Both the position numbers and the translations under genes were made by a program. A stretch of 64,000 nt of DNA from Desulfobacteraceae bacterium (GTDB lineage Bacteria; Desulfobacterota; Desulfobacteria; Desulfobacterales; JAABSP01), in assembly GCA_011390345.1 (NCBI GenBank), contig JAABSP010000012.1, forward strand, positions 7,846 through 71,845, written 5' to 3'. Positions 11,356 through 52,583 of this stretch are shown here, piece after piece; positions within the stretch are counted from its first letter, which is position 1, and each line of letters opens with the position of its first letter. A model generated the notes under the pieces. It made no database searches, was not told the DNA's origin, and was given only the letters and a program-made list of their open reading frames with translations.

Positions 11356-11415
11356 TCGACATCGAAGTTTATCTCTGAAAGCGGCTCACGCTGACCCCGC
11401 CATATCCGATGACAA

Positions 11416-12939
11416 TCAGAGGCCGATAAAAGAGCGCACCGTGATGATCGGCTTCCGCAGGATCTGCATTCCCAGGATGGTGGAATCGCCGTAGATCTTG
11501 GCAGATCCCTTCTGCCCCGGCTGCACTTCGGGCGGATCTCCCACCCAGACTGCCTCGGCCATCACCGACGGGATCTGATCTTCGGAAACCATAACATCGA
11601 AACCGAGACGGGTGATCACCGCGGGAATGGTCCGGAGCGGATCGCTGTCGAGCCGTACCCCCACCCGGGCCCCCTCCTTTAAAAAGCCGACATCACTGGC
11701 CGGGACCATGATCCGTACCTTGGTCTTATCCGGTTCCGCAACGCTCATAACAGCCTGTCCGGTCTGCAGGGCCGCGCCGATGATGGCATCGGGATCATCC
11801 AGTACGATGACCCCGGGATTTACGGTCTTTACCTCGGCCCGGGCCCGCTGACGGGCAAAAAACTCCACATCGGCCTCGGCCCGTTCCACTTCGAGCCGCT
11901 GGACCGGCAACTCTGCCCGGGCCTCCCGATCCCGATGCGCCGCACCCTCCAGTTTGGCCAGCTTTGCACGGGCAACCGCCACATTTCGATACGCCTCGTC
12001 CAGGCGCTTGTCCAACACCCGGGCATCATACCGGAAGAGCACGGTATCCTTTGCCACCCGCTGCCCCGGCTGCACCAGAAGCTCCTTCAGGATGCCGTCC
12101 ATGGGCGCGAAGATGTAATGGGGCCGATCCGGAACCGCGCGCAGAGGCGCGGTGACGCTGGAGGTGACCGGAAGCGCCAGCACCAGCAGCAGAACAAGGC
12201 CGGCCACAGATCGAATGATCCGCTTCCGGGAGCGGAGAGCCGCGCTTCTGGGCCGTGCCAATCCATGCCCCATGAAGAGCGCGGCATGGCGCAGCAGCTC
12301 CACATCGAGGCTGTCATCCCAGCGAAGCCCTCGCCATCGCTCCAGCCAGAGCGCATAAGCGGGCGGAATCTTTCCGTCCCTGTCGAGCCAGAGGGGAAGC
12401 CAGAGGATACCGGTCCCGCCCATGGCCGACTGAACTTTCTGGATCGGACCCTCCTGAGCCGGAGGGAGAATCATCGGCTCCTGCCGGTCTCCGTAGGCAT
12501 CCCGGGCCGCATCGATGGCATCGGCAAAACCACTGTCCTGAGCGGCCTGTCCCCCGCCTGTGACGGCCGCGATGGGCGACTTTCCGGAAAGGCGGACCAG
12601 CACGGCTCGATCGACCCGGGTGATCTCGGCCACCCGGTTGACCACAAGGGCCGCAGCCTCCTGAGGCATCGGCGCGGAGAGGATCGAGGTGCAGACCCTG
12701 AGAAAGCGCGCCAGCACCATATCACTGCCGGCGGGCCGGGCCCTGGGCGGCTGTTGCTGTTCCCCGCTGTTTCCGGCCCCGGGCGGCAGCGGCTGTTCTC
12801 CTCTGTTCCAGGCTCCCGTCGGCTGGGGCTTCGAAATCCCCTTTCCCGGGTCCTGCGGCTGTTCCGCGCCGTTCAGAGATCCATTCAGGTTCCGTGCCGC
12901 GCTCGAATCGAATCCGATTTTAGCCCCGGGTTTAGCCAT
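11416..12939 (-). CDS. HlyD-family membrane-fusion protein with ~230-aa cytoplasmic GAF-like N-terminal domain
   Basis: A Pro/Gln-rich disordered start is followed by a GAF-like block (LARFLRVCTSILSAPMPQEAAALVVNRVAEITRVDRAVLVRL...). A single TM follows (IIRSVAGLVLLLVLALPV). Next come lipoyl, coiled-coil and beta-barrel HlyD features (PMDGILKELLVQPGQRVAKDTVLFRYD...). The ATG overlaps the stop of the upstream HlyD gene. Confidence 0.8.
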   Translation of the reverse strand: MAKPGAKIGFDSSAARNLNGSLNGAEQPQDPGKGISKPQPTGAWNRGEQPLPPGAGNSGEQQQPPRARPAGSDMVLARFLRVCTSILSAPMPQEAAALVVNRVAEITRVDRAVLVRLSGKSPIAAVTGGGQAAQDSGFADAIDAARDAYGDRQEPMILPPAQEGPIQKVQSAMGGTGILWLPLWLDRDGKIPPAYALWLERWRGLRWDDSLDVELLRHAALFMGHGLARPRSAALRSRKRIIRSVAGLVLLLVLALPVTSSVTAPLRAVPDRPHYIFAPMDGILKELLVQPGQRVAKDTVLFRYDARVLDKRLDEAYRNVAVARAKLAKLEGAAHRDREARAELPVQRLEVERAEADVEFFARQRARAEVKTVNPGVIVLDDPDAIIGAALQTGQAVMSVAEPDKTKVRIMVPASDVGFLKEGARVGVRLDSDPLRTIPAVITRLGFDVMVSEDQIPSVMAEAVWVGDPPEVQPGQKGSAKIYGDSTILGMQILRKPIITVRSFIGL

Positions 12940-38860: not shown

Positions 38861-41800
38861 ATGAAGTACCGTGATCTTATCCGTTTTCAACCCATCGAAA
38901 ACCTCCTTCGGATCGATGACACCGCAGATCCGCAGACCGCAGCAGCGCTTGCCGATACATTCGCCGTCTCTTTGGAGACCCGGGCCGCAATCGCAGAAAG
39001 AATCCTGCCGCAGCTTCACCTGGAACCGCCGGGCCGGGGAATCCTTTTGATGGGAAGCTACGGAACCGGCAAGACCCATCTGATGTCGCTGATCGCAGGC
39101 GTTGCAGAGGGAACCCTTCCCCCTGAGGCATTGAGGGATCAGCAGTGCGCAAGGGCAGCCGCTGCCATCGAGGGACGATACAAGGTGGTACGGGCCGCGG
39201 TGGAGCCATCGATCCAGCCGCTTCGAGAACTTCTGCTGGCAGAAATCCAGGGCTATCTGCTCCAGGAGGATGCCATCGATGATGAGCATCCCGAATTGCC
39301 CGTCTCCCCGGATTCCTTTGATCGGATCATGGAAAAATTCAACAGCCGGTTTCCGGATCATGCGCTTCTGCTGCTGGTGGACGGTCTGACCGATTATCTC
39401 AAGGCCCGAAGCGAATCGGCTCTGGCTTCAGACATTGAATTTCTGTCGGAACTGAGCCGGATGGGAGAGAAGAATGCTTTCCGGATCATGGCGGGATTGC
39501 GGGAGATCGGCCATGACAGGGGCGGCAGAGAAGGCCGGGGAGAAGATACGGTCTCTGCTGAATGGCCCCAGTTTCAGGAGCAGGTCTTCGGGCTCCAGGA
39601 TCATTTCGAAACTCTCCGCCTCACGGAGCGGGACCTCGATGGAATCGTGGCAAACCGGCTTCTGGGCATTACCGCGGAAAACCTCGAGCGCATCAGAGCG
39701 CACCTGGAACCCTTCATCCCCTGCTACAGCAACCTGGAAAATGATCCGGATACCTTTGCCCATCTTTTCCCGTTTCATCCGGAAACGGTTGAGATGCTGG
39801 CCCAGATCTCGATGCTGGGAAGAGAGCCGGTGCTCCGGATGCTGTCGGACATCCTCTCTCCCTATCTGGACCGGGATCTGCCAGAAGATGAGCCGGGAAT
39901 AATCACCTGCGATGCGTGCTGGCTCTTCATCAAGGCCAATCCCGCCTTCAGCGCAATTCCGGATGTGAAATCGGTGATCGACTGCAATCAGCTCATCGAG
40001 TCGCGCATCCAGCGCAGCTTCACGCCGGTCGAGCACCGGGAGCTGGCCGTCAGAATCATCCGGGCTCTGTCCATGCACCGGCTCACAACCGGCGGAATTC
40101 ATATCCGAAAGGGGATCTCTCCCAAAGCGCTTCGGGATCTCATCCTTCCATCGCCCGCTTTGATCAGGAACCGGCAGGGAGATCCCGCAGAACAACTGCT
40201 CCAGCGGGTCGATTCCGTGCTGGGAGAATTGATGAAGACCCTTGACGGGCAGTTTCTCTCCCGCCACTCTCTGAGCAATCAGTATTTCATCGATCTGAAA
40301 AAGACCGAGAACTTTGACGCCAACATCGAAAAGCGGACAAAGGATCTCACCCCTCCTCTGCTGGACCGGTACTACTACGAGGTGCTAAAGCGCACCATGG
40401 AATGCACCTATGACACCTATGTCTCGGGATACCGGATCTGGTATCACGATCTGCAATGGTATGAACGAAACGCCTCCAGAAAAGGATACCTCATCTTTGG
40501 CTCCCCTGACGAAGGAACCTCCCGGATTCCCCGGCTCGACTTCAAGATCTACTTTATCCAGCCCTTTGTCCCGCCCGAATTCGACGACAGTCCGGGGGCA
40601 GGGGAGGTCTTTCTCCGGATCTCCCGGGGCAGCGCCTATTTCTGGAATCTGCTCAAAAGTTATGCCGCGGCTATGGAGTTGGCGTCGGAAACAGGGGATC
40701 ATGCGGAGTTCATCTATGAGATCAAGGCATCGGGATTTTTGAAAAAGCTGCTCCGGTGGCTGGATGACAACCTGAGCCCGGCCTTTGAACTGATCTACCG
40801 GGGCCGCTCCGCCTCTCTGCTCCGGTGGGCCGAGGGGCACAACATCCGGGAACTCTCCCGGATATCTCCCAATGAGCGGATCAACTTCAAGAATTTCGTC
40901 AATACGGTCTGCGGCATTGTCCTCTCCCGCCATTTTTCGGACCAGGCCCCGGCCTACCCTTTCTTTCCGATTCCCATTCCGGCTGCGGACCGGGGTCGGG
41001 TGGCGCAGGAGGCGCTATGGGGAATTGCCGGCGGAAGGTTCTCCCCCGAGTCCCGAACGGTGATGGAGGGGCTGGAGCTGATGAACGACCGGGGGCAGGT
41101 GGAGCCCATGCGCTCACGGTATGGCCGCTTTATGCTCCGAACGGTGGATGAACAGGGAGATGAGGGGCGGCTCTATCGATCAAAGCTCATCATCGATATC
41201 GGCGGGGCCGTCTATATGGCCCCGGAGGATGTCCGTCTGGAAGCTGAATGGGCCATAGTCCTGCTGGCCGCCTTTATCTACTCCGGAGATCTCGTGCTGG
41301 TACTCTCCAGAGGCCGGTTCGACGCGGGCCGGCTCTCGGATCTTGCGGCCCGCCCCCTTCCGGAGCTGATGAATTTCGAATTCGTCGAACACTCCCGGGA
41401 ATGGAACCCCGCGCTGGTCCGGGATATCTTCGATCTTCTGAAACTGCCGGCCCATCTTTCCCAGTTGGTTTTTCAGGGAAAGAGGGAGCCGATTGAAAAG
41501 CTTCGGATCCGTCTGGAAAAGCTCTTTGAGGAGATCGAAGGGGCTCAGGAAATCCTCTCCTCGCAGATTTCCTTCTGGGGGGCTGTCCTCATCCATGAGA
41601 ATCAGATTGGGATATTCAGGGGCCAGCTTGATGATCTGACAGACTTTGCAAGGCGGCTGATGGGATATGTCCTGGCCGAAAACCTGAAGGACTTCTCCTG
41701 CAAGGCGTCGGAATTCGAAGAGTGCAAAAAGGGAATGGAGGTACTCATCGAGCTGCTCTCCCTTCAGGAATTCGTGCGGGACATGGGAGAGCTGACCAGC

Positions 41801-42616
41801 TTTCTCACCGCGGCAGGGGCCGCGTTTTTGGAAAAGGATGAGTGGGTTCGGCAGATGCGGGGAGTGAAAAGCGAACTTCTAACCCGAATCTCCCGGTTCG
41901 GTGAGCACCGGACCCCCCAGTTCCGAAACGGAACATTTCAGCGGCTCCGGCAGCTCAAGGGCTCTTATATCGATGCGTATCTCTATCTCCATGGTATGGC
42001 CCGACTCAGTGGCGACGAAGAGAAGCAGCGCCAGGAGTTGCTCCGATCCGATCCCCGGCTCCAAAAGCTGAGGCAACTGGCCAAGATACCGCTGATGCCG
42101 GCAAATGGGCTTTCCGAGCTGATCGCAAGGCTGGAGGAATTGATCACCTGCACCCAGTTGACCGAAGGGGATCTGCGCCACTATCCCCTTTGCCCCCACT
42201 GCTTTTTCAAACCAGCAGCAGAGCCGCTTTCGATCACTGCAGGCAAGAAGCTGGAGCGTCTGAATGCAGAAATCGACCGATTAACCCAGACCTGGACCAA
42301 GACCTTGCAAACCCATTTCTCTGCCTTTTCCGACGGAGAGGTCTCCCTGATGCTCCCCCGGTCCGTGACCCGGTTTGCCGAGGACATGCAGGAGAAGGGA
42401 GAGCTTCCGGATGATATCTCCGATGACTTCATCCGGGAGATGATAGATCTTTTCGCAGCCTATCCAAAACAGGAACTTCCCATGGAACGGATCAAAGCCG
42501 CGCTGGAGGCCGAGGGAAATCCGGCCTCTCCGGCCGACCTGAAGCGCCTCTTTTCCGCATTGCTGGATGAGATGAGCGGTGAGGACGGGGATCGGGTGCG
42601 GATCGAGATCGCCTGA
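38861..42616 (+). CDS. 1251-aa P-loop NTPase resembling the BrxC/PglY-DUF6079 class of large defence-associated ATPases
   Basis: The N-terminal block is YRDLIRFQPIENLLRIDD...ADTFAVS. Walker A is GSYGTGKTH (aa 65-72). The Walker B-like motif is ALLLLVDGLTDYL. A very long helical remainder ends with a CPHC motif near the C-terminus. The family call is from memory of this architecture, not from a search. Confidence 0.6.
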   Translation: MKYRDLIRFQPIENLLRIDDTADPQTAAALADTFAVSLETRAAIAERILPQLHLEPPGRGILLMGSYGTGKTHLMSLIAGVAEGTLPPEALRDQQCARAAAAIEGRYKVVRAAVEPSIQPLRELLLAEIQGYLLQEDAIDDEHPELPVSPDSFDRIMEKFNSRFPDHALLLLVDGLTDYLKARSESALASDIEFLSELSRMGEKNAFRIMAGLREIGHDRGGREGRGEDTVSAEWPQFQEQVFGLQDHFETLRLTERDLDGIVANRLLGITAENLERIRAHLEPFIPCYSNLENDPDTFAHLFPFHPETVEMLAQISMLGREPVLRMLSDILSPYLDRDLPEDEPGIITCDACWLFIKANPAFSAIPDVKSVIDCNQLIESRIQRSFTPVEHRELAVRIIRALSMHRLTTGGIHIRKGISPKALRDLILPSPALIRNRQGDPAEQLLQRVDSVLGELMKTLDGQFLSRHSLSNQYFIDLKKTENFDANIEKRTKDLTPPLLDRYYYEVLKRTMECTYDTYVSGYRIWYHDLQWYERNASRKGYLIFGSPDEGTSRIPRLDFKIYFIQPFVPPEFDDSPGAGEVFLRISRGSAYFWNLLKSYAAAMELASETGDHAEFIYEIKASGFLKKLLRWLDDNLSPAFELIYRGRSASLLRWAEGHNIRELSRISPNERINFKNFVNTVCGIVLSRHFSDQAPAYPFFPIPIPAADRGRVAQEALWGIAGGRFSPESRTVMEGLELMNDRGQVEPMRSRYGRFMLRTVDEQGDEGRLYRSKLIIDIGGAVYMAPEDVRLEAEWAIVLLAAFIYSGDLVLVLSRGRFDAGRLSDLAARPLPELMNFEFVEHSREWNPALVRDIFDLLKLPAHLSQLVFQGKREPIEKLRIRLEKLFEEIEGAQEILSSQISFWGAVLIHENQIGIFRGQLDDLTDFARRLMGYVLAENLKDFSCKASEFEECKKGMEVLIELLSLQEFVRDMGELTSFLTAAGAAFLEKDEWVRQMRGVKSELLTRISRFGEHRTPQFRNGTFQRLRQLKGSYIDAYLYLHGMARLSGDEEKQRQELLRSDPRLQKLRQLAKIPLMPANGLSELIARLEELITCTQLTEGDLRHYPLCPHCFFKPAAEPLSITAGKKLERLNAEIDRLTQTWTKTLQTHFSAFSDGEVSLMLPRSVTRFAEDMQEKGELPDDISDDFIREMIDLFAAYPKQELPMERIKAALEAEGNPASPADLKRLFSALLDEMSGEDGDRVRIEIA

Positions 42617-42721: not shown

Positions 42722-43264
42722 ATGTTCTACGAGATATTGAAGAGACGAAGAAGCATCCGCAAGTTTCAGGATAGGGAGATCGAGGATAATCAGATCGAGC
42801 TGCTGCTCAAGGCCGCGCTCCTCTCCCCCTCCTCCCGGGGGATCCGGCCCTGGGAATTCATCATGATCGAAGATGCAAAGACCCTGGAGACCCTTGCCGG
42901 GTCCAAGCCCCACGGCGCAGGGTTTTTGAAGGGCGCGGCCGTCGGCATCGCGATCATCGCAGAGACCTCCAAATCGGACGTCTGGGTGGAGGACACATCC
43001 ATTGCCGCTGCCATTCTGCTGCTCATGGCCGAAGAGCTGGGGATGGGCGCGTGCTGGTGTCAGATCCGGAACCGGAAGTACGACGAGAAGTCCTCGGCCT
43101 CGGATTTCGTCCGAAAGACCCTTCAGATCCCGGACAAGTACGAAGTGGAGGCGATCATCGGTATAGGATATCCGGACGAGCAGAAGCGGCCTTATGTGGA
43201 CCAGGATCTGCTCTATGACAAGGTGCATCAGGGGATCTTCGGCCGGAAGCGGTATGAGGCATGA
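42722..43264 (+). CDS. nitroreductase-family FMN oxidoreductase
   Basis: The pattern RRSIRKFQDREIEDNQIELLLKAALLSPSSRGIRPWEF...GMGACW...IGIGYP matches the family. The stop overlaps the next ATG as ATGA. Confidence 0.88.
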   Translation: MFYEILKRRRSIRKFQDREIEDNQIELLLKAALLSPSSRGIRPWEFIMIEDAKTLETLAGSKPHGAGFLKGAAVGIAIIAETSKSDVWVEDTSIAAAILLLMAEELGMGACWCQIRNRKYDEKSSASDFVRKTLQIPDKYEVEAIIGIGYPDEQKRPYVDQDLLYDKVHQGIFGRKRYEA

Positions 43265-46200
43265 CCGAACCGAAAAATTACCCCAGGCTGGACCCGAAAC
43301 TGGAGAAGCTGCTGGAAAAGGCCGATGTAAAGCCCCTGGACATCAGCGAGGCCATCTGGCAGCCACTTGCCCAGAACATCCCCGCACAGCAGAACCTGGT
43401 CGTCACGACGCCCGGAAGAGCTGAAAAGACGGTCATCGCAGTGACCATTGCCGCCATCCTGTCCAGGTATGTGGAACGGATCTGGTATGTGGAGCCCCGG
43501 AGGGAAACGGATGACTACCGAACCTTCCGGATCTCCGCGGCCCTCTCCCATATCGGAACATCGACCTTCACCCGAGGGGAAGGGGGTGATTTCAATGCCC
43601 CGGTGCTGATCTGGCCCCTCGACATGGTGCTGGATCATTTGGCCGATCTCGAGGACATCCCCTGGCCCGGGGCTTTGATCTTAAACGGGCTGGAGCGGAT
43701 GGATCACCCACAGGACGGGGCGTTGATGGAGGCCCTGCTCCTTGCCCTGCCGGCCGACATTCCCGTTGCTGGGGTCGGAAGCGGGATTGCAAACATCGAT
43801 GCCGTGGCCAGTTGGCTGGAGACCCTCAAGGGACGGCCCTGCCGCAGCTATCACGCAGATATCGAGCCGATGCCCCGGATTCCGGCCTTTCTGACCTCGG
43901 AATGGGAACTGCTGCCTCTGCTGGACAGAAAAAAGCTCTCGGGAAGGGTAAAGCGGAGCCTGAAAGAACTGTCGCCCTTTGATGCCGACTCCCCCAAGTT
44001 CATGCGCGAGCTGCTGGAATTTTTAGGGGCCGGCTTCGGCCCTGCCCTGGCGGTTGCGGCCGCGCCCGGTGAGTGTGACAGTGCGGTTTTCAGAGGCCCA
44101 AAGGCCGCGAAAAAGGCCGGGGACCCCCTGACCGAACCTCTGGTGAGCCGCATTCTGGACCAGAACCCGGACATCAAGGAGGCCCCCCTGCTCAAGGAGG
44201 TGCTGGCCCGGCGGATCGGTACGGTCCACGAGAACCACCATCCCCTCTGGAACCGGCTCATGGAGCACCTCATGGCTATGGATGGACTGGATCTGATCGT
44301 CGGAACCCCGGGAACCCTTTCGGAGATGGATGTCCGTACAAAGAGTGTACTCTTTCTTGCATCGGAAACTCCGGAGCCCCACAAGGAGGCAGAGGAGATA
44401 TCCCACTGGGACGGGAACCGGATCATTCGGCTTGCGGGGCGCCGCGGGGTCGATGATGCCGGGTGGGTCATCGCGGTCCACGAGTCAGACACGGACCCGG
44501 TTCGGATCAAGGATCTCTTTCTGGCCGACGAGCATTCCCTCTCGGGCGCGTTCCGGTGCGATTTCCGGACGGTGCTGGCGCTCTGCAGCCAGGCACGCTT
44601 CGGCGTTCCAAAAGATATGCTGGAGAGATCCTTCACCGGAGACGCGGAAGAGCCGTTTACCGGCTTCGACCTCTCTGAGTTCCGGCAGGGTCTTGCAGAA
44701 GAGATCCCCAATGCCCGGTGCAGCGGCCACATCCAGTCGGTATCCGCGCTGAAGGATCTGCGGATTCGGCTGACTTTGGAGATGACGCGGATCGAAGATA
44801 CCCATCCCCGGGAGGCAAAGGGGAAAGAGGCTGCGCTGAAGCGGCGCCTCCAAGAGCTGGAGACCTTTCTGCCGGAGCTTCCCTGCGAGGGCTGCGACCA
44901 TTTCTCCCTCTGCCACGGCCGGGGCACCAAGACCTTCCGGGCACTGATGGAACAGTACTATGAAAACCTGGAGCCGTTGAAGGAGAGCCGCGCCGGGCTG
45001 CTACTCGACCTGGACCACCGGATCGAGTCTCTGCGGGCCTTCGGTTTGATCGATGATGAGGACAGGCTCACGGAAATGGGAAAGAGTGCCCTCAGAACCG
45101 GCCTGGAGACGCCCCAGCCCCTGGTGGAATGCCTGCGGCAGGGGGTTTTCGAGGATCTGGAGCCGCAGATCGCGATCGCCCTGGCCGGCGGGTTCATCGA
45201 AATGGGGGAATGGCGGCCCAAACCCCATATGGAAGAGAATCTGAGAAGCTTTTTTTCCGATCTGGAACCGGTCTATGCGAAGATGGAACCGGCCATCGAC
45301 AGTGCCCGAAGGGAGATGCTCCGCTTCGGCTTTGCCGTCAAAGCGCCGTCGCCCCAGCAGTCGGCCATCATCCTGGCCTGGACCGGGGAAACCGATGAAC
45401 GGACTCTGAAGCAGTACACGGGGATTCCCATGGGGCCCCTCGCGGAACTGATCCGGAGGACCCGGTATCTCTGCCGGCAGTTGAACATCGGACCGCTCTC
45501 AGGGGTCTGCCATACGGATGATCGAATCGACGACCGCTCAACCGGGGAAGAGGATATCAAAGAGGGAGAAAACGCTCCGATCAGGGAAAAGGAAAGGGAT
45601 GAAAATATGATGCAGCCGCTCGTCTATCGGATTCATCTGGAGCCGGATCCGGACCGGTTCCGGTTCTCAGGAAATGTAAAGATCCGTTTTCAGGTCCGAA
45701 AGCCTTCGGATACCATTGTACTGAACATTCTGGATCTTGCGGTCTGGCGCTGCGAGATCCTCCGGGACGGGGAAAAGATCCCCTGCGCCTTCTCTGCGGA
45801 GCCCCGGAAGGAGGAACTGATCATTACCCTTCCGGAGCCGGCCGAGGGCGAGATCGAAATCTTCATCGAATATGAAGGGAACATCAACGACCAGATGGCC
45901 GGGTTCTATCGGAGCGGCTACAAGGTCGGGGAGGAGACCCGGTACATCGCAGTGACCCAGTTCCAGGAGAGCGATGCCCGAAGGGTCTTTCCCTGCATGG
46001 ACCACCCGCAGCAGAAGGCCGTCTTCGAGATCGAGATGGTCTGTGACCGGCGACTCACCCCGATCGCGAACACCCTGCCGGTCGAAGAGCGGAAGATCGA
46101 TGAGAACCGGCGGCTGACCCGTTTCGCGCCGACGCCCAAGATGTCAACCTATCTCCTCTTCATGGGGATCGGCGAGTTCGACATCGTCGGGGATTCGGAG

Positions 46201-48078
46201 GACCCGAGGATTCGGGTGATCACGACCCCGGGTCTCACCAGGTACGGAAAGCTTGGGCTCGATTTCGGGAAAAAGGCGCTGCAGTACTGCGAGGAATATT
46301 ACGACATCCCCTTCCCCCTGCCCAAGCTGGATCAGATCGCAGTCCCCGACTTCGCGTTCGGCGCGATGGAGAACTGGGGCGCGATCACCTACCGGGAGAA
46401 CCTGCTCCTCGATTTTCCCGAGATCACCTCCAAGGCGGGCCGTGAGCGGATCTGCGAGGTGATCGCGCACGAGACCGCGCACCAGTGGTTCGGCAACCTG
46501 GTCACGCCGTCGGACTGGAAATACCTCTGGCTCAACGAGAGCTTTGCCACCTATTTCGGCTTCGGGGTGGTGGATCACTACTATCCGGAATGGGAGATCT
46601 GGGATCAGTTCATCCATACCGAGACCCATGTGGCCCTGGTGCGGGATGCTCTGCATGAGACCTTTCCCATCGAGATTCCGGGCGGCGAGCATGTGGTCAT
46701 AAACGCGAGCACAGCGCCCATCATCTACAACAAAGGGGGCAGCATTCTCCGGCAGGTCGAGGGGTATATCGGAACCGAGAGCTTTCAGGGTGGGCTGAGA
46801 AGCTATCTGAAGAAGTTCGAATACGGATGCGCTTCCAGCCATGATCTCTGGGACGCGCTGGCCGCGGCATCGGATGCCCCCATCACCCGGATGATGAAGG
46901 GATGGGTGGAGCAGCCGGGATTTCCGGTCATCGAGGCCCGGCGGGACAGCGATGAGCTGACCCTGACCCAGCGCAGATTTACCTATCTGCCCAATGATTC
47001 GGAGCAGGTCTGGCCCGTGCCGGTGATCCTGCGCCTCTTCGATGAAAAAGGGGAATCGAGGGCCGAGACGATCCTTCTGGAAAAAGTTTCTGAGACGATA
47101 CCGATAGATCCGGGCACCACAGCCTTCAAGATCAACGACGGCCAGACCGGCTTCTATCGGGTCCGGTATGAGGAGAAGGATCTGGAAAACCTGGCCCCGC
47201 TGGTGAAGGAGAAAGTACTCTCTCCCCAGGACCGGTGGGGGCTGGAGAGCGATCTATACGAGCAGGTCAAGGCCGCAAACCTGACGCCGGATAAGTACCT
47301 CGATTTCCTGGATCACTACAGGGATGAGGATGCCTTCCTCCCCCTGGTGAGCATCGCGGGCAACCTCTTCGGCTCCTATCTGATCCTTTCGGAGAAGTGG
47401 AAAGAGCGGATTGCGTCAACCGCAAAGGGGATTTTCGAGCCGCTGCTCGCCAGGATCGGATATGAGCCCGCGGAAGATGAGCCCCACACCACTTCCCTGC
47501 TCCGGGACCGGATCATCTGGCCTCTGGCTCTTTACGGATCGGATGAGACGCGGGAATTCTGCCGGAAGAGGTTTTCGGTTCTACAGTCCGGCGGAAGAGT
47601 CCATCCGGATATTGCAAAGAGTGTGATGCAGGTGGCCGCGCTATCGGGCGGAGAGGAGGTCTGGGAATGGCTGATCAACCGGCTGAAGAGTACCGAGAGC
47701 GAGCATGAGCGGATGAACATCCTGATCGCGATGGGCTGTTTTTCTGATAAGTCGCTGATCGACCGGGCAAAGGAGTATATTCTGGAAAAAGTCCCCAGCC
47801 GCAACCGGTTCGTGCCCATCTCCGCGCTGACCATGAATCCCCATGCCATTCCCGATATGTGGAACTGGTATCAGGAGAACCTGCGCGCGCTGGAGGCATT
47901 TCACCCGATCCATTACGAGCGGGTGATCGAATCGATCATGCCGGTCTGCGGGCTGGTCAGTCCCGATGCGGTGAAGGCGTTCTTCAAGGAGTATGGGAGC
48001 AAGAAGCCGGCGTTCAAGGATATAATCAACCTCTCTCTGGAGAAGCTGGAGATCAACCTGCGGATGGCGGAGATGTAA
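43261..48078 (+). CDS. single 1605-aa ORF: degenerate Ski2/HelY-like helicase (aa 1-~770) fused in frame to an M1-family aminopeptidase (aa ~783-1605)
   Basis: The N-terminal half keeps Ski2-like landmarks (IGTVHENHHP...GLDLIVGTPGTLSEMDV; LAGRRGVDDAGWVIAV) and a DSHCT-like end. Its Walker A reads TTPGRAEKT and the DEVH position reads NGLE. The C-terminal half has intact M1 motifs GAMENWG, HETAHQWFGNLV and WLNESFA plus an ERAP1-like C-domain. No stop codon separates the halves. Confidence 0.85.
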   Translation: MTEPKNYPRLDPKLEKLLEKADVKPLDISEAIWQPLAQNIPAQQNLVVTTPGRAEKTVIAVTIAAILSRYVERIWYVEPRRETDDYRTFRISAALSHIGTSTFTRGEGGDFNAPVLIWPLDMVLDHLADLEDIPWPGALILNGLERMDHPQDGALMEALLLALPADIPVAGVGSGIANIDAVASWLETLKGRPCRSYHADIEPMPRIPAFLTSEWELLPLLDRKKLSGRVKRSLKELSPFDADSPKFMRELLEFLGAGFGPALAVAAAPGECDSAVFRGPKAAKKAGDPLTEPLVSRILDQNPDIKEAPLLKEVLARRIGTVHENHHPLWNRLMEHLMAMDGLDLIVGTPGTLSEMDVRTKSVLFLASETPEPHKEAEEISHWDGNRIIRLAGRRGVDDAGWVIAVHESDTDPVRIKDLFLADEHSLSGAFRCDFRTVLALCSQARFGVPKDMLERSFTGDAEEPFTGFDLSEFRQGLAEEIPNARCSGHIQSVSALKDLRIRLTLEMTRIEDTHPREAKGKEAALKRRLQELETFLPELPCEGCDHFSLCHGRGTKTFRALMEQYYENLEPLKESRAGLLLDLDHRIESLRAFGLIDDEDRLTEMGKSALRTGLETPQPLVECLRQGVFEDLEPQIAIALAGGFIEMGEWRPKPHMEENLRSFFSDLEPVYAKMEPAIDSARREMLRFGFAVKAPSPQQSAIILAWTGETDERTLKQYTGIPMGPLAELIRRTRYLCRQLNIGPLSGVCHTDDRIDDRSTGEEDIKEGENAPIREKERDENMMQPLVYRIHLEPDPDRFRFSGNVKIRFQVRKPSDTIVLNILDLAVWRCEILRDGEKIPCAFSAEPRKEELIITLPEPAEGEIEIFIEYEGNINDQMAGFYRSGYKVGEETRYIAVTQFQESDARRVFPCMDHPQQKAVFEIEMVCDRRLTPIANTLPVEERKIDENRRLTRFAPTPKMSTYLLFMGIGEFDIVGDSEDPRIRVITTPGLTRYGKLGLDFGKKALQYCEEYYDIPFPLPKLDQIAVPDFAFGAMENWGAITYRENLLLDFPEITSKAGRERICEVIAHETAHQWFGNLVTPSDWKYLWLNESFATYFGFGVVDHYYPEWEIWDQFIHTETHVALVRDALHETFPIEIPGGEHVVINASTAPIIYNKGGSILRQVEGYIGTESFQGGLRSYLKKFEYGCASSHDLWDALAAASDAPITRMMKGWVEQPGFPVIEARRDSDELTLTQRRFTYLPNDSEQVWPVPVILRLFDEKGESRAETILLEKVSETIPIDPGTTAFKINDGQTGFYRVRYEEKDLENLAPLVKEKVLSPQDRWGLESDLYEQVKAANLTPDKYLDFLDHYRDEDAFLPLVSIAGNLFGSYLILSEKWKERIASTAKGIFEPLLARIGYEPAEDEPHTTSLLRDRIIWPLALYGSDETREFCRKRFSVLQSGGRVHPDIAKSVMQVAALSGGEEVWEWLINRLKSTESEHERMNILIAMGCFSDKSLIDRAKEYILEKVPSRNRFVPISALTMNPHAIPDMWNWYQENLRALEAFHPIHYERVIESIMPVCGLVSPDAVKAFFKEYGSKKPAFKDIINLSLEKLEINLRMAEM

Positions 48079-48093
48079 GCACCCGAAACCATA

Positions 48094-48675
48094 TTATACG
48101 CCGAAGACCGCGTCCAGATCGATGACAAGCCCCTCGATGGATGCGGTCTTTTTGCTTCCGCCCTCCAGAATTTCCGTTGCGCCATATCGGCCGTCAGGCC
48201 CCAGGATACGAACGTAGAGAATATTATCCGCCGGATGAATGATCCAGTACTCTTTTACACCATGTTTTTCGTATAAGGAGAGCTTCCGGATCTGATCCTT
48301 GGCCGCAGTGGAAGGCGACAGGATTTCGATGATGAAATCCGGCGCGCCCCGACACCCCCGGTCATCGACCTTTGAAGAATCACAGACCACGGAAAAATCC
48401 GGCTGCACAACGGTGATGATCTCGTCATCCGCCTCATTCTTCTCCGGTAGCCGGACATCGAAGGGCGCAATATAGGGAATACACTCGCTGTCCTGTAAAT
48501 GATTGCTGATCTGACGGCCCAGTTCCAACAGGATTCGCTGATGACGTGGATGGGGTGCAGGACTCATATCATAAGGAACCCCTTGGATCAGCTCACATCG
48601 TTCCTCATCGGGCCAGTTTCGGTAATCTCTATAGGTTAGGATCTCTTTTTCGTTTTTCAAGCTCGGCATCGACAT
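48094..48675 (-). CDS. Uma2-family (DUF820) restriction-endonuclease-fold protein, copy 1
   Basis: ...WPDEERCELIQGVPYDMSPAPHPRHQ...VVQPDFSVVCD...GAPDFIIEILSPSTAAKDQIRKLSLYEKHGVKEYWII contains the PD-(D/E)xK core. Confidence 0.85.
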   Translation of the reverse strand: MSMPSLKNEKEILTYRDYRNWPDEERCELIQGVPYDMSPAPHPRHQRILLELGRQISNHLQDSECIPYIAPFDVRLPEKNEADDEIITVVQPDFSVVCDSSKVDDRGCRGAPDFIIEILSPSTAAKDQIRKLSLYEKHGVKEYWIIHPADNILYVRILGPDGRYGATEILEGGSKKTASIEGLVIDLDAVFGV

Positions 48676-48734: not shown

Positions 48735-49316
48735 TCATACGCTGAAGACCGCGTCCAGATCGATGATAAGTTCCGGAACGGCTGCGATCTTTTTGCTTCC
48801 GCCCACCACGATTTCCGACACACCGTATCGACCGTCGGGGCCGAGGGTCCGGACATAGAGGATGTTGTCCGTGGGATGGATGATCCAATACTCTTTCACC
48901 CCATGCTTTTCGTAGAGCGAGAGCTTCCGGGTCTGATCCTTGGCTGCGGTCGACGGCGACAGGATTTCGATGATGAAATCCGGCGCGCCCCGACACCCCC
49001 GGTCATCGACCTTTGAAGAATCACAGACGACCGCAAGATCCGGCTGGACAACGGTGATGATCTCGTCATCGGCCTCATCCTTCTCAGGAAGCCGGAAATC
49101 GTAGGGCGCCACAAAGAGCCTGCAGTCTCTGTTCATTAAACATCGGAAAATCTGGTAGTTCAGCGCCACAAGGATCTCCTGATGGCGGGTATTGGGTGCA
49201 GGACTCATATCATAAGGAACCCCTTGGATCAGCTCCCATCGTTCCTCTCCGGGCCAGTTCCGGTAATCCCCATAGGTGAGGATCTCTTTTTCGTTTTTCA
49301 GATTCGGCATCGACAT
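48735..49316 (-). CDS. Uma2-family (DUF820) restriction-endonuclease-fold protein, copy 2
   Basis: This is a paralog of copy 1. The start is set at ATG 49316 (MSMPNLKNEK), preceded by AAAGGAGAG at 8 nt, matching the copy 1 start context. The track start at 49343 is an upstream extension. Confidence 0.85.
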   Translation of the reverse strand: MSMPNLKNEKEILTYGDYRNWPGEERWELIQGVPYDMSPAPNTRHQEILVALNYQIFRCLMNRDCRLFVAPYDFRLPEKDEADDEIITVVQPDLAVVCDSSKVDDRGCRGAPDFIIEILSPSTAAKDQTRKLSLYEKHGVKEYWIIHPTDNILYVRTLGPDGRYGVSEIVVGGSKKIAAVPELIIDLDAVFSV

Positions 49317-49346
49317 GGCATTTGCTCTCCTTTTCATGCTCATCTA

Positions 49347-49437: not shown

Positions 49438-49467
49438 TTGACAGAGAGGGTCAAGGTAAACCATACT
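49438..49467 (+). promoter_or_regulatory. possible sigma70-like promoter for moaC (TTGACA-18 nt-CATACT) with overlapping 7-bp inverted repeat CCTTGAC/GTCAAGG
   Basis: The sequence is ccTTGACAgagagggtcaaggtaaacCATACT, about 35 nt upstream of the moaC ATG. Confidence 0.3.
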
Positions 49468-49500
49468 CTTCCTTTGATATTGCAGAAGGGAGGGCTGCAG

Positions 49501-50010
49501 ATGACCGACTTCACCCACATCGACGAAAAAGGGCAGGTTCGGATGGTGGATGTCTCGGAAAAGGCCGAAACCGTTCGAACCGCGACCGCAGAAGCCCGCA
49601 TCGAGATGAAACCGGAGACCTTTCGCCGGATCTATGACAAGGAGATCAAAAAGGGGAATGTGCTGGAGACGGCCCGGATCGCGGGCGTCATGGCCGCAAA
49701 AAGAACCGGGGAGCTGATCCCCATGTGCCATCCCATCCCCATCACCCACGCGCAGGTCGATTTTCTGCCGGAGCCGGATACCCATACCATCCGGATCAGC
49801 GCAACGGCCCGCACAGTGGGCCAGACCGGGGTGGAGATGGAGGCGCTGACCGCGGCCTCTGTGGCGGCCCTGACCATCTATGACATGTGCAAGGCCATCG
49901 ACCGGGAGATGACCGTGAAAGAGATCCGGCTGATGGAAAAATCAGGGGGAAAGAGCGGAGATTTTCTTAGGACCCAAGCGGATGCATCTAAAGGAGAGGC
50001 GGGGCCATGA
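49501..50010 (+). CDS. moaC: cyclic pyranopterin monophosphate synthase MoaC
   Basis: [21 protein letters not shown]...[21 protein letters not shown]...[23 protein letters not shown]. The start at 49501 is preceded by GAAGGGAGGG. Confidence 0.92.
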
Positions 50011-51296
50011 GAAAAAAAACATATGCAGCATTTGGCGTTCTGATCAGTCTTCTGTTTGCACTCTGGGGATGCCCTCAAAAACCGCTGCCGCCGCCGGAAC
50101 CGGAAAAGCCCGACCTGGTCCGGCTGGCACTGGAAGATTATCCCCGGTTTGCCGATGATATGAACTACGACGGGCTGGACCAAGCCATCCAGAAGAGCCT
50201 GCTCTACCTGAACCGGATTCCGCCGAACCGCACCTTTTCCCTCGGTGAGGAGACTGTATCCGCAGCCCATGTAAAGCGTTCCCTGGAGCGGTTTCAGGAT
50301 ATCCTCTTCCTGAAACCGACGCCCGATGATCTGAACCGGTTCATCCGGGAGAACTTCCGGGTTTACGGATCTTTGGCGCCGGCACCAGAACCCCCGACAG
50401 CAGAGGAATCAGAGGAGGAATCAGAGCCCGAATTAGAACCGGATGCCCCCCCTTTAAAAACCGCAGAGAATGCGGTTCTCTTCACCGGATATTTCGAGCC
50501 CCTGCTGCAGGGAAGCCTCTCCCGGGGCGGCCCCTATCAGTATCCGGTCTACGGGATGCCCCAAAATATTGCGGTGGTGGATCTCTCCCTCTTTTCAGAT
50601 AAATATGCCGGAGAGAAGATCATCGGCCGGGTCTCGGGAAAGAGCTTTGTTCCCTATTATGAGCGCAAGGAGATCGAAGAGAAGGGGGTATTGCGGAATA
50701 ATGCCCCGGTGCGGGCCTGGGTCGATGACCCGATCGATCTCTTCTTTCTGCAGATCCAGGGGTCCGGAAAGATCGAACTGACGGATAAAGAGATCATCGA
50801 TGTCCATTACAGCGGAAAGAATGGCCGCCCCTATCGGGCCATCGGCCGGCTGCTCATCGACGAGGGAAAGGTCTCCAAAGAAGAGATGTCGATGCAGCGG
50901 ATCCGCCAATATCTGGAGGAGAACCCTGATGACGCGGATCGGGTGATGAACTACAACCCGAGCTATGTCTTTTTCAGTATCGAAGATGACGGGCCCAAAG
51001 GCGCATTGAACGTGGTGCTGACCCCGGGCCGCTCTCTTGCGGTGGACCGGGGGATCTTCCCCATGGCCGCGCTCGCGTTTGTCCGAACAGAAAAGCCGCT
51101 GCTGGACCATGAGGGCCGGATTCGAGAATGGACCCATTTTTCCCGATTCATGCTCCATCAGGATACCGGAGGCGCGATCAAAGGCGCGGACAGGGCAGAC
51201 ATCTTCTGGGGAAGCGGCCATTATGCCGAGATCGCGGCGGGACATCTGCGCCACCGGGGAGAGCATTATCTACTGCTGCTGAACCCGGATAAATAG
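50007..51296 (+). CDS. mltA: murein transglycosylase A (MltA) lipoprotein
   Basis: The lipobox is LFALWGC. The MltA and 3D domain blocks are present (TGYFEPLLQGS..., FLQIQGSGKI, GRPYRAIGRLL, LHQDTGGAIKGADRADIFWG). Confidence 0.88.
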   Translation: MRKKTYAAFGVLISLLFALWGCPQKPLPPPEPEKPDLVRLALEDYPRFADDMNYDGLDQAIQKSLLYLNRIPPNRTFSLGEETVSAAHVKRSLERFQDILFLKPTPDDLNRFIRENFRVYGSLAPAPEPPTAEESEEESEPELEPDAPPLKTAENAVLFTGYFEPLLQGSLSRGGPYQYPVYGMPQNIAVVDLSLFSDKYAGEKIIGRVSGKSFVPYYERKEIEEKGVLRNNAPVRAWVDDPIDLFFLQIQGSGKIELTDKEIIDVHYSGKNGRPYRAIGRLLIDEGKVSKEEMSMQRIRQYLEENPDDADRVMNYNPSYVFFSIEDDGPKGALNVVLTPGRSLAVDRGIFPMAALAFVRTEKPLLDHEGRIREWTHFSRFMLHQDTGGAIKGADRADIFWGSGHYAEIAAGHLRHRGEHYLLLLNPDK

Positions 51297-51343
51297 AACA
51301 ACTTCATGGATCAACTCATTTGAAATAGGACAGGAGATATATC

Positions 51344-51805
51344 ATGTTCGGCATGGGAATGCCTGAAATCATTCTTATACTGGCCATCGCACTGATTGTG
51401 ATCGGCCCAAAAAAGCTTCCGGAAATGGCCAAATCCCTGGGCCGGGCCATGGGGGAGTTCAAAAGAGCCACCAGCGATTTCCGGGAGACCCTGGAGATCG
51501 ACAATGAACTCTCCCAGGTGAAGAAAGCCTTTGACGACATGAACGTCGAAGATCAGGAGGAGAAAAGACCGCCGGCCCCCCTGAAGGAGAAAAAGGCATC
51601 GCCGCCCAAGGAGAGCATCGAGGTTTCCGATGATCCGGCTGCGGCCCCGGATATAGTGGCCATGACCGAGGGAGAGGCGACAAAAGCAGAGAAGCCCCTG
51701 GCGGAAAAGGAAGCTGGAGAGAGAGCCCCGGAATCGGAAAAGCCCTTGTCTCAAAAGGGTTCAGAACCGGAAACCGCTTCGGAAAAAGGAACCGCCAATG
51801 CTTAG
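51344..51805 (+). CDS. tatB: twin-arginine translocase TatA/TatB-family protein with long acidic tail
   Basis: MFGMGMPEIILILAIALIVIGPKKLPEMAKSLGRAMGEFKRA is the TatA/E/B N-terminal signature. The 153-aa length suggests a TatB-like role. Confidence 0.85.
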   Translation: MFGMGMPEIILILAIALIVIGPKKLPEMAKSLGRAMGEFKRATSDFRETLEIDNELSQVKKAFDDMNVEDQEEKRPPAPLKEKKASPPKESIEVSDDPAAAPDIVAMTEGEATKAEKPLAEKEAGERAPESEKPLSQKGSEPETASEKGTANA

Positions 51806-52583
51806 GGAAGAGGACAAGATTCCCTTTACCGAGCATCTGGAGGAGCTTAGAACCCGGCTGATCAACTCCTTTATCGCTGTCTTCATCGGCTTTTTCATCT
51901 GCTACTTCTTCAAGGAAACTCTTTTCCAGATTCTCACCGCGCCGCTGATTGCGGTCATGGGCGAGGGGGACAAGCTGATCTTCACCAATCTGCCCGAGGC
52001 CTTCTTCACCTACCTGAAGGTGGCCTTGCTGGCCGGGATCATGCTGGCCGCGCCCTTCCTTTTCTACCAGTTCTGGATGTTCGTCGCGCCGGGCCTCTAT
52101 CAGAAGGAGCGCCGGATTCTGATCCCCATCGTTCTTCTCTCTTCGATCTTCTTTGTGGGGGGCGCGCTCTTCGGCTATTTCATCGTCTTCCCCTGGGGTT
52201 TCAAATTCTTTTTAGGGTTTGCAAGCGAGACTATCCGGCCCCTTCCCTCCATGAAGGAGTATCTGAGTTTTTCCAGCAAGCTGCTGATCGCGTTCGGCGT
52301 AGTCTTCGAGCTTCCCCTGGTGCTCACCTTCATGGCCCGGCTGGGGATGGTTTCGGTCGATTTTCTGAAGAAGAACCGAAAATATGCGCTGCTGCTCTTT
52401 TTTATCGGTTCGGCCATTCTCACCCCGCCCGATGTGGTGACGCAGGTGATGATGGCGCTTCCCCTGATGCTGCTCTACGAGGTCAGCATCATCGGCGCGC
52501 GGATCTTTGGCCGGAAGCCTTTGGATGCGGATTTGCCGGACATGGATGAGGATGAATTGAAACAGAAGAAAGATAAAGCATGA
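51798..52583 (+). CDS. tatC: twin-arginine translocase subunit TatC
   Basis: FTEHLEELRTRLI..., six TM helices, ...LTPPDVVTQ... It overlaps tatA/B by 8 nt. Confidence 0.93.
   Translation: MLREEDKIPFTEHLEELRTRLINSFIAVFIGFFICYFFKETLFQILTAPLIAVMGEGDKLIFTNLPEAFFTYLKVALLAGIMLAAPFLFYQFWMFVAPGLYQKERRILIPIVLLSSIFFVGGALFGYFIVFPWGFKFFLGFASETIRPLPSMKEYLSFSSKLLIAFGVVFELPLVLTFMARLGMVSVDFLKKNRKYALLLFFIGSAILTPPDVVTQVMMALPLMLLYEVSIIGARIFGRKPLDADLPDMDEDELKQKKDKA

What the first reader, a model, noticed from the sequence alone, without database searches (positions are those of the whole stretch)
43261..48078. In-frame fusion of a catalytically degenerate Ski2/HelY-like helicase to an intact M1 aminopeptidase (1605 aa)
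The first ~770 aa follow the Ski2/HelY/Mtr4 layout, with RecA1, RecA2, arch/winged-helix and a DSHCT-like end. Motif VI is retained as LAGRRGVDDAG, along with the HHaGllP-like IGTVHENHHP block.

The ATPase residues are gone. Walker A reads TTPGRAEKT, so the GK of GxGKT is lost. The DEVH position reads NGLE.

A low-complexity linker follows (GEEDIKEGENAPIREKERDEN). Its DNA looks like a former intergenic region and still contains AAGGAAAGGGA 7 nt before ATGATG at 45607. The ORF then continues without a stop into a complete M1 peptidase (GAMENWG, HETAHQWFGNLV, WLNESFA, ERAP1-like C-domain).

I know of no described helicase-M1 fusion. A dead helicase could act as a nucleic-acid-sensing or scaffold domain controlling a peptidase. 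Alternatively, this may be a very recent stop-codon loss or an assembly error.
Basis: partly seen in the sequence, partly recalled or inferred. Interest (0 to 1): 0.75.

Follow-up and report, generated by a model that had tools for sequence, protein, structure and literature searches.

The report
Dead helicase fused to M1 aminopeptidase
One uncultured lineage of sulfate-reducer-type bacteria (Desulfobacteraceae) has really joined a catalytically dead Ski2/HelY-like helicase gene to an ordinary, intact M1 aminopeptidase gene, but it is a one-lineage event that looks like loss of a stop codon, not a new molecular machine.

Summary
The 1605-aa ORF (43261-48078, +) is real. The same in-frame junction occurs in a separate read-set assembly with 1 SNP in 10 kb. 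It also occurs in a different Desulfobacteraceae MAG at 96% nt identity, so an assembly error is excluded.

The N-terminal 744 aa have a Ski2/Mtr4/HelY fold: phmmer E 2e-13, Pfam DSHCT, AF2 pLDDT 87.5 and Foldseek E 4.5e-27. Motifs Ia, Ib, II, III and V are lost and motif I is damaged. This decay is not specific to the fusion. About 30 clusters of standalone 710-760-aa relatives show the same decay, and all keep a C...PCxxCxHxxxC metal-site motif.

The C-terminal 823 aa equal a full-length, intact Desulfobacteraceae M1 peptidase. More than 4,700 strong M1 matches were found, the listed ones all standalone at 55-60% identity. Their start codon aligns with ATGATG at 45607, behind a retained Shine-Dalgarno sequence.

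Among 1.84 billion representative proteins, only this one is fused. In seven relatives of the helicase-like half and two of the M1 half, the genes are unlinked. The helicase-like half is under purifying selection in the fused state (dN/dS 0.18).

Best reading: a young, lineage-restricted fusion by stop loss, tolerated or mildly useful. No emergent function is demonstrated.

The parts
42722..43264 (+). Nitroreductase-family gene (180 aa). Its stop overlaps the fusion gene's ATG (ATGA), so it is a likely operon partner.
   Evidence: Pfam Nitroreductase E 2.9e-24. It is conserved with the fusion gene in L006. Homology between the two genomes begins at window 42709.
43261..48078 (+). Fusion ORF of 1605 aa and about 182 kDa.
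   Evidence: The identical protein is found in Logan DRR846335. The same junction is found in MAG S20.Bin068.
43261..45492 (+). Ski2/HelY-like pseudohelicase module (residues 1-744): RecA1, RecA2, winged helix plus helical hairpin, and a DSHCT helical bundle.
   Evidence: phmmer against PDB, Mtr4 E 2e-13. AF2 pLDDT 87.5. Foldseek Mtr4/FRH/Ski2 E 4.5e-27. Standalone homologues of 710-760 aa cover residues 10-741.
43408..43431 (+). Motif I remnant TPGRAEKT. Lys-Thr is kept; the Gly before Lys has become Glu.
   Evidence: Alignments.
43681..43698 (+). Motif II position LNGLER, in place of LDEVHY. Both acidic residues and the His are lost.
44428..44457 (+). Motif VI remnant RLAGRRGVDD. AGRRG is kept; the Gln and the first Gly-Arg are lost.
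44710..44916 (+). Metal-site motif: C487 (in NARCSG), then PC542-x2-C545-x-H547-x3-C551. The ligands flank a helical hairpin (residues 491-539).
   Evidence: The four Cys are invariant and H547 is nearly invariant (at least 90%) across 32 family members. The Cys ligands are also present in active relatives P0034, P0035, P0036 and P0038, and as CxxCx5H in P0152. The metal identity is inferred.
45061..45486 (+). DSHCT (NUC185) domain, residues 601-742.
   Evidence: Pfam PF08148, 26.9 bits against a cut-off of 22.7. It aligns to the Mtr4 C-terminal bundle.
45493..45606 (+). Acidic linker of 38 aa, predicted to be disordered. It is probably the translated former 3' tail, intergenic region and 5' UTR.
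   Evidence: pLDDT below 50 for residues 747-781. Standalone homologues end at about residues 741-750. pI 4.4.
45589..45609 (+). Retained Shine-Dalgarno-like AAGGAAAGGGA, with AGGGA 7 nt before ATG 45607, which is the ancestral M1 start codon.
   Evidence: M1 orthologues carry AGGGAG or AGGGGG 5-6 nt before their ATG. Their N-termini, M-x3-NPxNYKIHLEPD, align with MMQPLVYRIHLEPD.
45607..48078 (+). Complete M1 aminopeptidase module (823 aa, about 95 kDa): M1_N 45613-46155, catalytic domain 46258-46905, ERAP1_C 47125-48051.
   Evidence: Pfam E 1e-46 to 2e-68. It is 55-60% identical over 100% of its length to standalone 825-840-aa Desulfobacteraceae M1 peptidases. The best PDB matches are puromycin-sensitive aminopeptidase (E 3e-133) and tricorn-interacting factor F3.
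46360..46548 (+). M1 active-site motifs: GAMENWG (46360-46380), HETAH (46468-46482), and the third zinc ligand Glu in WLNESFA (46528-46548). The catalytic Tyr lies in IIYNKGGS at 46720-46743.

Best explanation
This is a genuine but young and lineage-restricted gene fusion in an uncultured Desulfobacteraceae lineage.

**How it arose (inferred).** The gene for a standalone HelY/Ski2-derived pseudohelicase came to lie directly upstream of the housekeeping M1 aminopeptidase gene. Loss of the upstream stop codon, by point mutation or a small indel, put the roughly 110-nt tail, intergenic region and 5' UTR in frame. That stretch now encodes an acidic, disordered 38-aa linker.

**The pseudohelicase module.** It belongs to a family that lost ATPase and canonical RNA-contact motifs long ago. 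The family keeps the Ski2 fold and a Cys3-His/Cys4 metal site. This module cannot hydrolyse ATP or unwind (inferred from motifs). It most likely acts as a structural or protein-binding module.

**The M1 module.** It keeps every catalytic residue, so it most likely still works as a cytosolic aminopeptidase trimming oligopeptides (inferred from the family). M1 enzymes tolerate N-terminal extensions; eukaryotic APN and PSA have them.

**Products.** The ancestral ribosome-binding site and ATG are intact. The locus can plausibly make both a 182-kDa fusion protein and a 95-kDa free peptidase (inferred, untested).

**Overall.** The fusion tethers two functions that are independent elsewhere. No emergent, coupled activity needs to be invoked.
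For: **The fusion is real**
- The ORF has no stop.
- The same protein is on an independent Logan assembly, with 1 synonymous SNP in 10,182 nt.
- The same in-frame junction is in MAG S20.Bin068 at 96% nt identity.

**The fusion is restricted**
- In 1.84 billion representatives, the 150 best of 424 hits include only one fused protein, the window's own. The next roughly 30 clusters are standalone proteins of 710-760 aa.
- A scan of JGI metagenomes with the junction segment found nothing.
- Seven standalone relatives have no M1 gene nearby and no conserved neighbour.
- Two M1 orthologue loci have no helicase-like gene nearby.

**The junction is a former 5' UTR**
- Orthologue start codons align to MM at 45607.
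- Comparable AGGGA-type ribosome-binding sites precede them.
- Some orthologue gene calls that start upstream translate their UTR into a similar 'EKERK' stretch.
- The linker is predicted to be disordered.

**Both halves are still functional proteins**
- dN/dS for the pseudohelicase half between the two fused genomes is 0.18, from 53 synonymous and 31 non-synonymous changes.
- The M1 motifs are intact.

**The pseudohelicase is a family trait**
- The motif table covers 32 members and 6 active relatives.
- The invariant columns are the Cys ligands, not ATPase residues.
Against: - No intermediate genome with the two genes adjacent but separate was found, so the stop-loss route is inferred, not shown.
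- Retention in two genomes that have diverged (dS about 0.09), together with purifying selection on the N-terminal half, is also what a beneficial, functionally coupled fusion would show.
- The 128 codons spanning the linker and the start of M1 carry no synonymous change, where about 8 would be expected. This is unexplained. It could reflect extra constraint such as an internal start or mRNA structure, or recombination.
- There are no expression or protein data.
Confidence: 0.62

Rival explanations
1. The fusion is a functionally coupled chimeric enzyme. The pseudohelicase module acts as a recruiting or regulatory domain, binding a partner protein, a ribosome/RNA complex or a substrate. It localises or gates the aminopeptidase, so the fusion was selected for.
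For: - The fusion is kept in two diverged genomes.
- The N-terminal half is under purifying selection in the fused state (dN/dS 0.18).
- A flexible linker is typical of tethered domains.
- The junction region is unusually conserved.
- Precedent from established knowledge: Ski2-like helicases can act as ATPase-independent scaffolds, as FRH does in the Neurospora clock. FRH is among the best structural matches.
Against: - Only a single lineage has the fusion.
- The two genes are unlinked in all other genomes seen, so there is no guilt-by-association signal.
- RNA-contact motifs are lost and the module is acidic.
- The retained ribosome-binding site and ATG suggest the peptidase can still be made alone.
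Confidence: 0.25
2. The fusion is an artefact: a sequencing or assembly error has removed a stop codon or frameshift between two separate adjacent genes.
For: - The junction looks like an intergenic region with a ribosome-binding site and ATG.
- A TGA lies in another frame within the linker.
Against: - The identical junction is found in an independent read-set assembly.
- It is also found in a different MAG that has 100 nucleotide differences across the 3.2-kb shared stretch.
- The same error arising three times is very unlikely.
Confidence: 0.03
3. The fusion gene is part of an anti-phage defence island together with the upstream BrxC/PglY-like DUF6079 ATPase, with the peptidase as effector.
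For: A DUF6079 gene at 38861-42616 matches the PADLOC BrxC model at 1032 bits and lies two genes upstream on the same strand.
Against: - DUF6079 is absent from the related MAG. Synteny starts only at 42709.
- Neither half of the fusion matches any PADLOC model.
- Standalone relatives sit in housekeeping contexts.
- The M1 half is the ordinary, widespread Desulfobacteraceae orthologue.
Confidence: 0.03

Closest known systems
Ski2-like SF2 RNA helicases (Mtr4/Dob1, Ski2, FRH; bacterial HelY)
   Same: - Same fold and domain order: RecA1, RecA2, winged helix and a DSHCT helical bundle.
- Family-signature residues outside the active site are kept: RG..WEE-like G153/E157, PC(R/H), HH..P and AGRRG.
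- The Cys-rich motif is shared with active bacterial relatives.
   Different: - Motifs Ia, Ib, II, III and V are lost, and motifs I and VI are damaged.
- There is no arch with a KOW domain, only a helical hairpin.
- The module is acidic rather than basic.
- It is about 740 aa, against 810-1090 aa for active bacterial relatives.
Standalone HelY-derived pseudohelicase family (unnamed; P0001 and P0004-P0033, 710-760 aa)
   Same: - The N-terminal 744 aa are a full-length member, 34-38% identical end to end.
- They show the same motif decay and the same invariant C...PCxxCxHxxxC.
   Different: - All other members stop at about residue 745 and are never fused.
- The window's copy is the most acidic.
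- It is among those with the most degraded motif II (NGLE, against the commoner D-D/E-x-E).
M1 aminopeptidases of the PSA / tricorn-interacting factor F3 type (bacterial 'M1 family metallopeptidase', about 827 aa)
   Same: - Full-length collinear match with all four regions.
- GAMEN, HExxH-x18-E and the catalytic Tyr are present.
- 55-60% identity to Desulfobacteraceae orthologues.
   Different: It carries a 782-aa N-terminal extension, where the orthologues start at the equivalent of M783.
Known pseudohelicases (yeast Utp25, Deinococcus PriA)
   Same: These are helicase folds with degenerate ATPase motifs that serve non-catalytic roles (PMC9539457, PMC4504706; titles and abstracts only).
   Different: They belong to different helicase families (DEAD-box-like, PriA). 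None is Ski2-like, and none is fused to a peptidase.

Membership tests
Ski2-like (Mtr4/Ski2/HelY) helicases | RecA1-RecA2-WH-helical bundle (DSHCT) architecture | tested here: met
   Pfam DSHCT above cut-off. Three collinear phmmer stretches to Mtr4. AF2 model with Foldseek E 4.5e-27 and TM 0.6-0.7.
Ski2-like (Mtr4/Ski2/HelY) helicases | Motif I, GxGKT (P-loop) | tested here: not met
   The sequence is TPGRAEKT. Lys-Thr is kept, but Glu replaces the Gly.
Ski2-like (Mtr4/Ski2/HelY) helicases | Motif II, DExH | tested here: not met
   NGLE.
Ski2-like (Mtr4/Ski2/HelY) helicases | Motifs Ia, Ib, III and V (RNA contact and coupling) | tested here: not met
   VEPRRETDDYR, WPLDMV, GSG and GTPGTLSEMDVRT, against PLKALSNxK, TTE, SAT and TxTxxxGxNxPA.
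Ski2-like (Mtr4/Ski2/HelY) helicases | Motif VI, QxxGRAGRRG | tested here: inconclusive
   RIIRLAGRRG. The AGRRG core is kept; the Gln and first Gly-Arg are lost.
Ski2-like (Mtr4/Ski2/HelY) helicases | RNA-stimulated ATPase and 3'-5' unwinding activity | not testable with these tools
   Needs biochemistry. The motifs predict no activity.
MEROPS M1 aminopeptidases (gluzincins) | HExxH-x18-E zinc site | tested here: met
   HETAH, then 18 residues, then the E of WLNESFA. It aligns to the PSA HELAH...NEGFA.
MEROPS M1 aminopeptidases (gluzincins) | GxMEN exopeptidase motif and catalytic Tyr | tested here: met
   GAMENWG. The Tyr of IIYNKGGS aligns to the PSA ISYSKGAS.
MEROPS M1 aminopeptidases (gluzincins) | N-domain, thermolysin-like catalytic domain and ERAP1-like C-domain | tested here: met
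   Pfam PF17900, PF01433 and PF11838, all far above cut-off.
MEROPS M1 aminopeptidases (gluzincins) | Aminopeptidase activity | not testable with these tools
   Needs an enzyme assay.
Bona fide gene fusion (composite gene) | Continuous reading frame reproduced in independent assemblies or genomes | tested here: met
Bona fide gene fusion (composite gene) | Both components exist as separate full-length genes elsewhere | tested here: met
Bona fide gene fusion (composite gene) | A fused polypeptide is actually produced | not testable with these tools
   Needs proteomics or a western blot. An internal ribosome-binding site and ATG could give a separate M1 product.
BREX-type defence locus | BrxC/PglY-like ATPase conserved next to the gene of interest | tested here: not met
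   DUF6079 is present in the window but absent from the related MAG. Other BREX genes were not searched for across the whole window.

The most novel reading that the evidence does not exclude
The HelY-derived pseudohelicase is a metal-stapled protein- or RNP-docking module. In this lineage it has been recruited to target or gate an M1 aminopeptidase, for example at ribosomes or RNA-decay complexes. That would be a new kind of partner-controlled exopeptidase, and it would give a first functional handle on an unannotated pseudohelicase family.
Probability: 0.12. Interest if true: 0.65.

Novelty: new variant of a known kind. Interest (0 to 1): 0.33.

Why it matters
If the fusion is only a tolerated stop-loss event, it is a clean, well-documented example of how composite genes are born in bacteria. 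The ancestral ribosome-binding site and start codon are still visible inside the ORF. That is useful mainly as an annotation caution and as a case study.

The more general by-product is an unannotated family of Ski2/HelY-derived pseudohelicases, about 30 clusters at 50% identity.
- The most conserved feature of the family is a Cys/His metal site rather than the ATPase.
- The same motif is present in active bacterial HelY-like helicases.
- This points to a structural metal site in bacterial Ski2-like proteins that merits biochemical attention.

If the fusion were functionally coupled, it would hint at what the pseudohelicase family does.

Tried and rejected
1. **Profile-based locus searches.** The search for related loci with alignments A1 and A2 failed because no stretch of 7-10 columns was conserved enough. 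The single-protein search then used the only genome-contig scan, which found one relative.
2. **Profile protein search.** The search for homologous proteins with profile A1 returned only two active helicases and not even the known family members. This reflects the limits of the word index, and one search was wasted.
3. **Metagenome scan.** A scan with the junction segment found no relatives.
4. **AlphaFold database search.** The afdb50 fold library was unavailable.
5. **Named families.** No NCBIfam or PADLOC family matches the N-terminal half.
6. **Promoter and terminator scan.** It shows nothing in or near the linker, and counts are at shuffle level.
7. **Literature.** Searches found no description of a bacterial DSHCT pseudohelicase or of a helicase-M1 fusion. 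Absence from this library is not proof.
8. **Ancestral stop.** An out-of-frame TGA lies in the linker, but the event that removed the stop cannot be reconstructed without an intermediate genome.
9. **Defence-island reading.** Rejected on synteny.
10. **A second M1 or helicase-like copy in the window.** None found.


Full report
**1.

The ORF listing gives one ORF, 43261..48078 on the + strand, of 1605 aa. Pfam finds DSHCT at residues 601-742 (26.9 bits, above the 22.7 cut-off). It then finds Peptidase_M1_N (785-965), Peptidase_M1 (1000-1215) and ERAP1_C (1289-1597). No DEAD or Helicase_C model fires.

**2. The N-terminal half is Ski2-like but catalytically dead**

- phmmer against PDB sequences hits Mtr4/Dob1, FRH and Ski2 (best E 1.8e-13) in three collinear stretches covering RecA1, RecA2 and the DSHCT bundle.
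- An AlphaFold2 model built on 32 family sequences is confident (pLDDT 87.5, pTM 0.87), apart from residues 747-781, which are disordered.
- Foldseek against the PDB puts Mtr4, FRH and Ski2 first (E 4.5e-27 to 1e-19, TM about 0.6). The best target-normalised score is for arch-less Mtr4 (6c90, 0.71).
- There is no KOW-bearing arch, only a helical hairpin at about residues 491-539.

Aligned to Mtr4 and to six active bacterial relatives:

| Motif | Active helicases | This protein |
|---|---|---|
| I | AHTSAGKT / PTGSGKT | TPGRAEKT |
| Ia | PLKALSNxK | EPRRETDDYR |
| Ib | TTE | PLD |
| II | DEVH | NGLE |
| III | SAT | GSG |
| V | TxTxxxGxNxPA | GTPGTLSEMDVRT |
| VI | QxxGRAGRRG | RIIRLAGRRG |

Lys-Thr is retained, and the preceding Gly is now Glu. 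The conclusion of no ATPase activity is well founded on motifs, but it remains an inference.

**3. The degeneracy is a family trait**

An exhaustive phmmer run over 1.84 billion representatives gave 424 hits.
- After the window's own protein (P0003, 1605 aa) come about 30 clusters of standalone proteins of 710-760 aa. They match residues about 10-741 end to end (E 1e-128 to 1e-38, 22-38% identity).
- Only then come active HelY-like helicases of 809-923 aa.

In the motif table, every one of the 32 family members lacks motifs Ia, Ib, III and V and a DExH box. Some keep GKT and a D-D/E-x-E at motif II.

The invariant columns are P261, D344, C487, P541, C542, C545, C551 and G607, with H547 nearly invariant. 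Together they form a C...PCxxCxHxxxC motif flanking the helical hairpin.
- The Cys ligands of the motif are present in the active relatives P0034, P0035, P0036 and P0038.
- It appears as CxxCx5H in an actinobacterial HelY-like protein, P0152.
- I infer a structural metal site, probably zinc given the Cys/His interchange. An Fe-S cluster is not excluded.

No Pfam model (apart from DSHCT), NCBIfam model or PADLOC model covers this family, and no source gives its members a name.

The window's module is the most acidic in the family. Its pI is 5.3 and its net charge is -26, against 5.9-8.7 for the rest of the family and 9.5-9.8 for the closest active relatives. This argues, weakly, against nucleic-acid binding.

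**4. The C-terminal half is an ordinary, intact M1 peptidase**

- It matches puromycin-sensitive aminopeptidase (E 3e-133) and tricorn-interacting factor F3 (E 3e-107) from its third residue onward.
- GAMEN, HETAH-x18-E and the catalytic Tyr are in place.
- A search returned 4,702 proteins with E <= 1e-100. The best 120 are all standalone, 821-847 aa, 55-60% identical over 99-100% of the query. Where they are named, they come from Desulfobacteraceae, Desulfobacterales or other Deltaproteobacteria.
- Their N-termini, M-x3-NPxNYKIHLEPD, align with MMQPLVYRIHLEPD. ATG 45607 is therefore the ancestral start.
- Orthologue loci carry AGGGAG or AGGGGG 5-6 nt before their ATG. The window keeps AGGGA 7 nt before its ATG.
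- Orthologue gene calls that start too far upstream translate their UTR into '...KPEKERKM', much like the window's '...REKERDENMM'.

The linker therefore reads as a translated ribosome-binding region.

**5. The fusion is real**

- The exact 1605-aa protein is on a Logan assembly of run DRR846335. That contig differs from the window by one synonymous SNP in 10,182 nt.
- The one genome-contig scan found MAG 'Desulfobacteraceae bacterium S20.Bin068' (JAABSZ010000075.1), 95% identical in protein. Its reading frame runs uninterrupted through the same linker into the M1 N-domain until the contig ends.
- The two DNAs differ at 100 positions over 3.2 kb and by an in-frame 24-nt SEFR repeat expansion.

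These are different genomes sharing the junction, so an assembly or sequencing artefact is excluded for practical purposes.

**6. The fusion is restricted and the partners are otherwise unlinked**

- No other fused protein appears among the 150 best hits.
- A JGI metagenome scan with the junction segment found nothing.
- Seven standalone family members sit next to unrelated genes. These include CysS, a Cache-PP2C phosphatase, a HAD-AIRS protein, kinases, an Rnf cluster and a CxxCxxCC protein. None has an M1 peptidase, a nitroreductase or any recurrent neighbour.
- Two M1 orthologue loci have RNase III or a small ORF upstream and no helicase-like gene.
- The window holds no second copy of either half.

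**7. Selection**

Between the window and the S20.Bin068 genome, the pseudohelicase half has 53 synonymous and 31 non-synonymous differences. That gives dS 0.10, dN 0.019 and dN/dS 0.18. The half has therefore been kept as a functional protein while fused.

The 128 codons covering the linker and the first 90 codons of M1 show 0 synonymous and 3 non-synonymous changes, and mismatch density falls toward the 3' end. This is unexplained. The numbers are small.

**8. Context**

A 180-aa nitroreductase gene (42722-43264) overlaps the fusion's ATG by ATGA. It is the only neighbour shared with the related MAG, where synteny begins at 42709. The BrxC/PglY-like DUF6079 ATPase upstream (38861-42616) is not shared, so a defence-island reading is rejected.

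**9. Interpretation**

*Shown:*
- A real composite gene.
- A dead-motif Ski2 fold belonging to a standalone pseudohelicase family.
- An intact M1 peptidase equal to the lineage's housekeeping orthologue.
- A disordered linker that retains the M1 ribosome-binding site and ATG.
- Restriction to one lineage.
- Purifying selection on the N-terminal half.

*Inferred:*
- Origin by stop loss between genes that had become adjacent.
- No ATPase or unwinding activity.
- Peptidase activity retained.
- Possible dual products of 182 and 95 kDa.
- The pseudohelicase acts as a structural or protein-binding module.

Passive tethering without emergent function is the most economical reading (0.62). A selected, functionally coupled chimera remains possible (0.25).

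**10. Novelty and score**

The domain combination is, as far as these searches reach, unique. However, it is built from known kinds, is found in one uncultured lineage, and carries no evidence of a new mechanism. I rate it a 'new variant of a known kind', with interest 0.33. The unannotated pseudohelicase family and the shared Cys/His motif of bacterial HelY-like proteins are the more general, modest by-products.

Noticed in passing
window 38861-42616 (+): A solitary 1251-aa DUF6079 / BrxC-PglY-like ATPase (Pfam 970 bits, PADLOC BrxC 1032 bits). It lies between amino-acid-metabolism genes and the nitroreductase. It is absent from the related MAG, whose synteny with the window starts only at 42709, so this looks like an insertion or rearrangement breakpoint. 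Other BREX components were not looked for.
   Followed up: partly
window 44710-44916; P0034, P0035, P0036, P0038, P0152: A C...(P)CxxCxHxxxC motif (CxxCx5H in actinobacterial HelY-like P0152) is shared by active bacterial Ski2/HelY-like helicases and by the pseudohelicase family. In the pseudohelicase family it is the most conserved feature. It is probably a structural Zn site, or possibly Fe-S, stapling the base of the helical hairpin. I found no description of it in the searchable literature.
   Followed up: partly
L006 about 11412-11435, against window about 44676: An in-frame 24-nt tandem expansion in the related MAG (SEFRSEFRSEFRQ against SEFRQ). It lies in a surface loop just before the first Cys ligand.
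   Followed up: no
window 45493-45877 against L006: There are no synonymous differences in the 128 codons spanning the linker and the start of M1, where about 8 would be expected from the upstream rate. Mismatch density declines steadily toward the 3' end. Possible causes are recombination, extra constraint around an internal start, or chance.
   Followed up: partly
window 48094-48675 and 48735-49343 (-): Two tandem Uma2-family (DUF820) putative endonuclease paralogues lie immediately downstream of the fusion gene, convergent with it.
   Followed up: no
window 49438-54337 (+): A run of MoaC, MltA-3D lytic transglycosylase, TatC and a 585-aa YcaO-domain protein. MltA and TatC mark the organism as a diderm bacterium. 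The YcaO context was not examined.
   Followed up: no
L011 7288-11475 (-); L001 4537-6468 (-): The neighbourhoods of two standalone pseudohelicases contain FGE-sulfatase-domain fusions: a TIR-Metallophos-NACHT-FGE protein of 1395 aa and a Pkinase-FGE protein of 643 aa. This is probably coincidental, but it recurs in two unrelated contigs.
   Followed up: no
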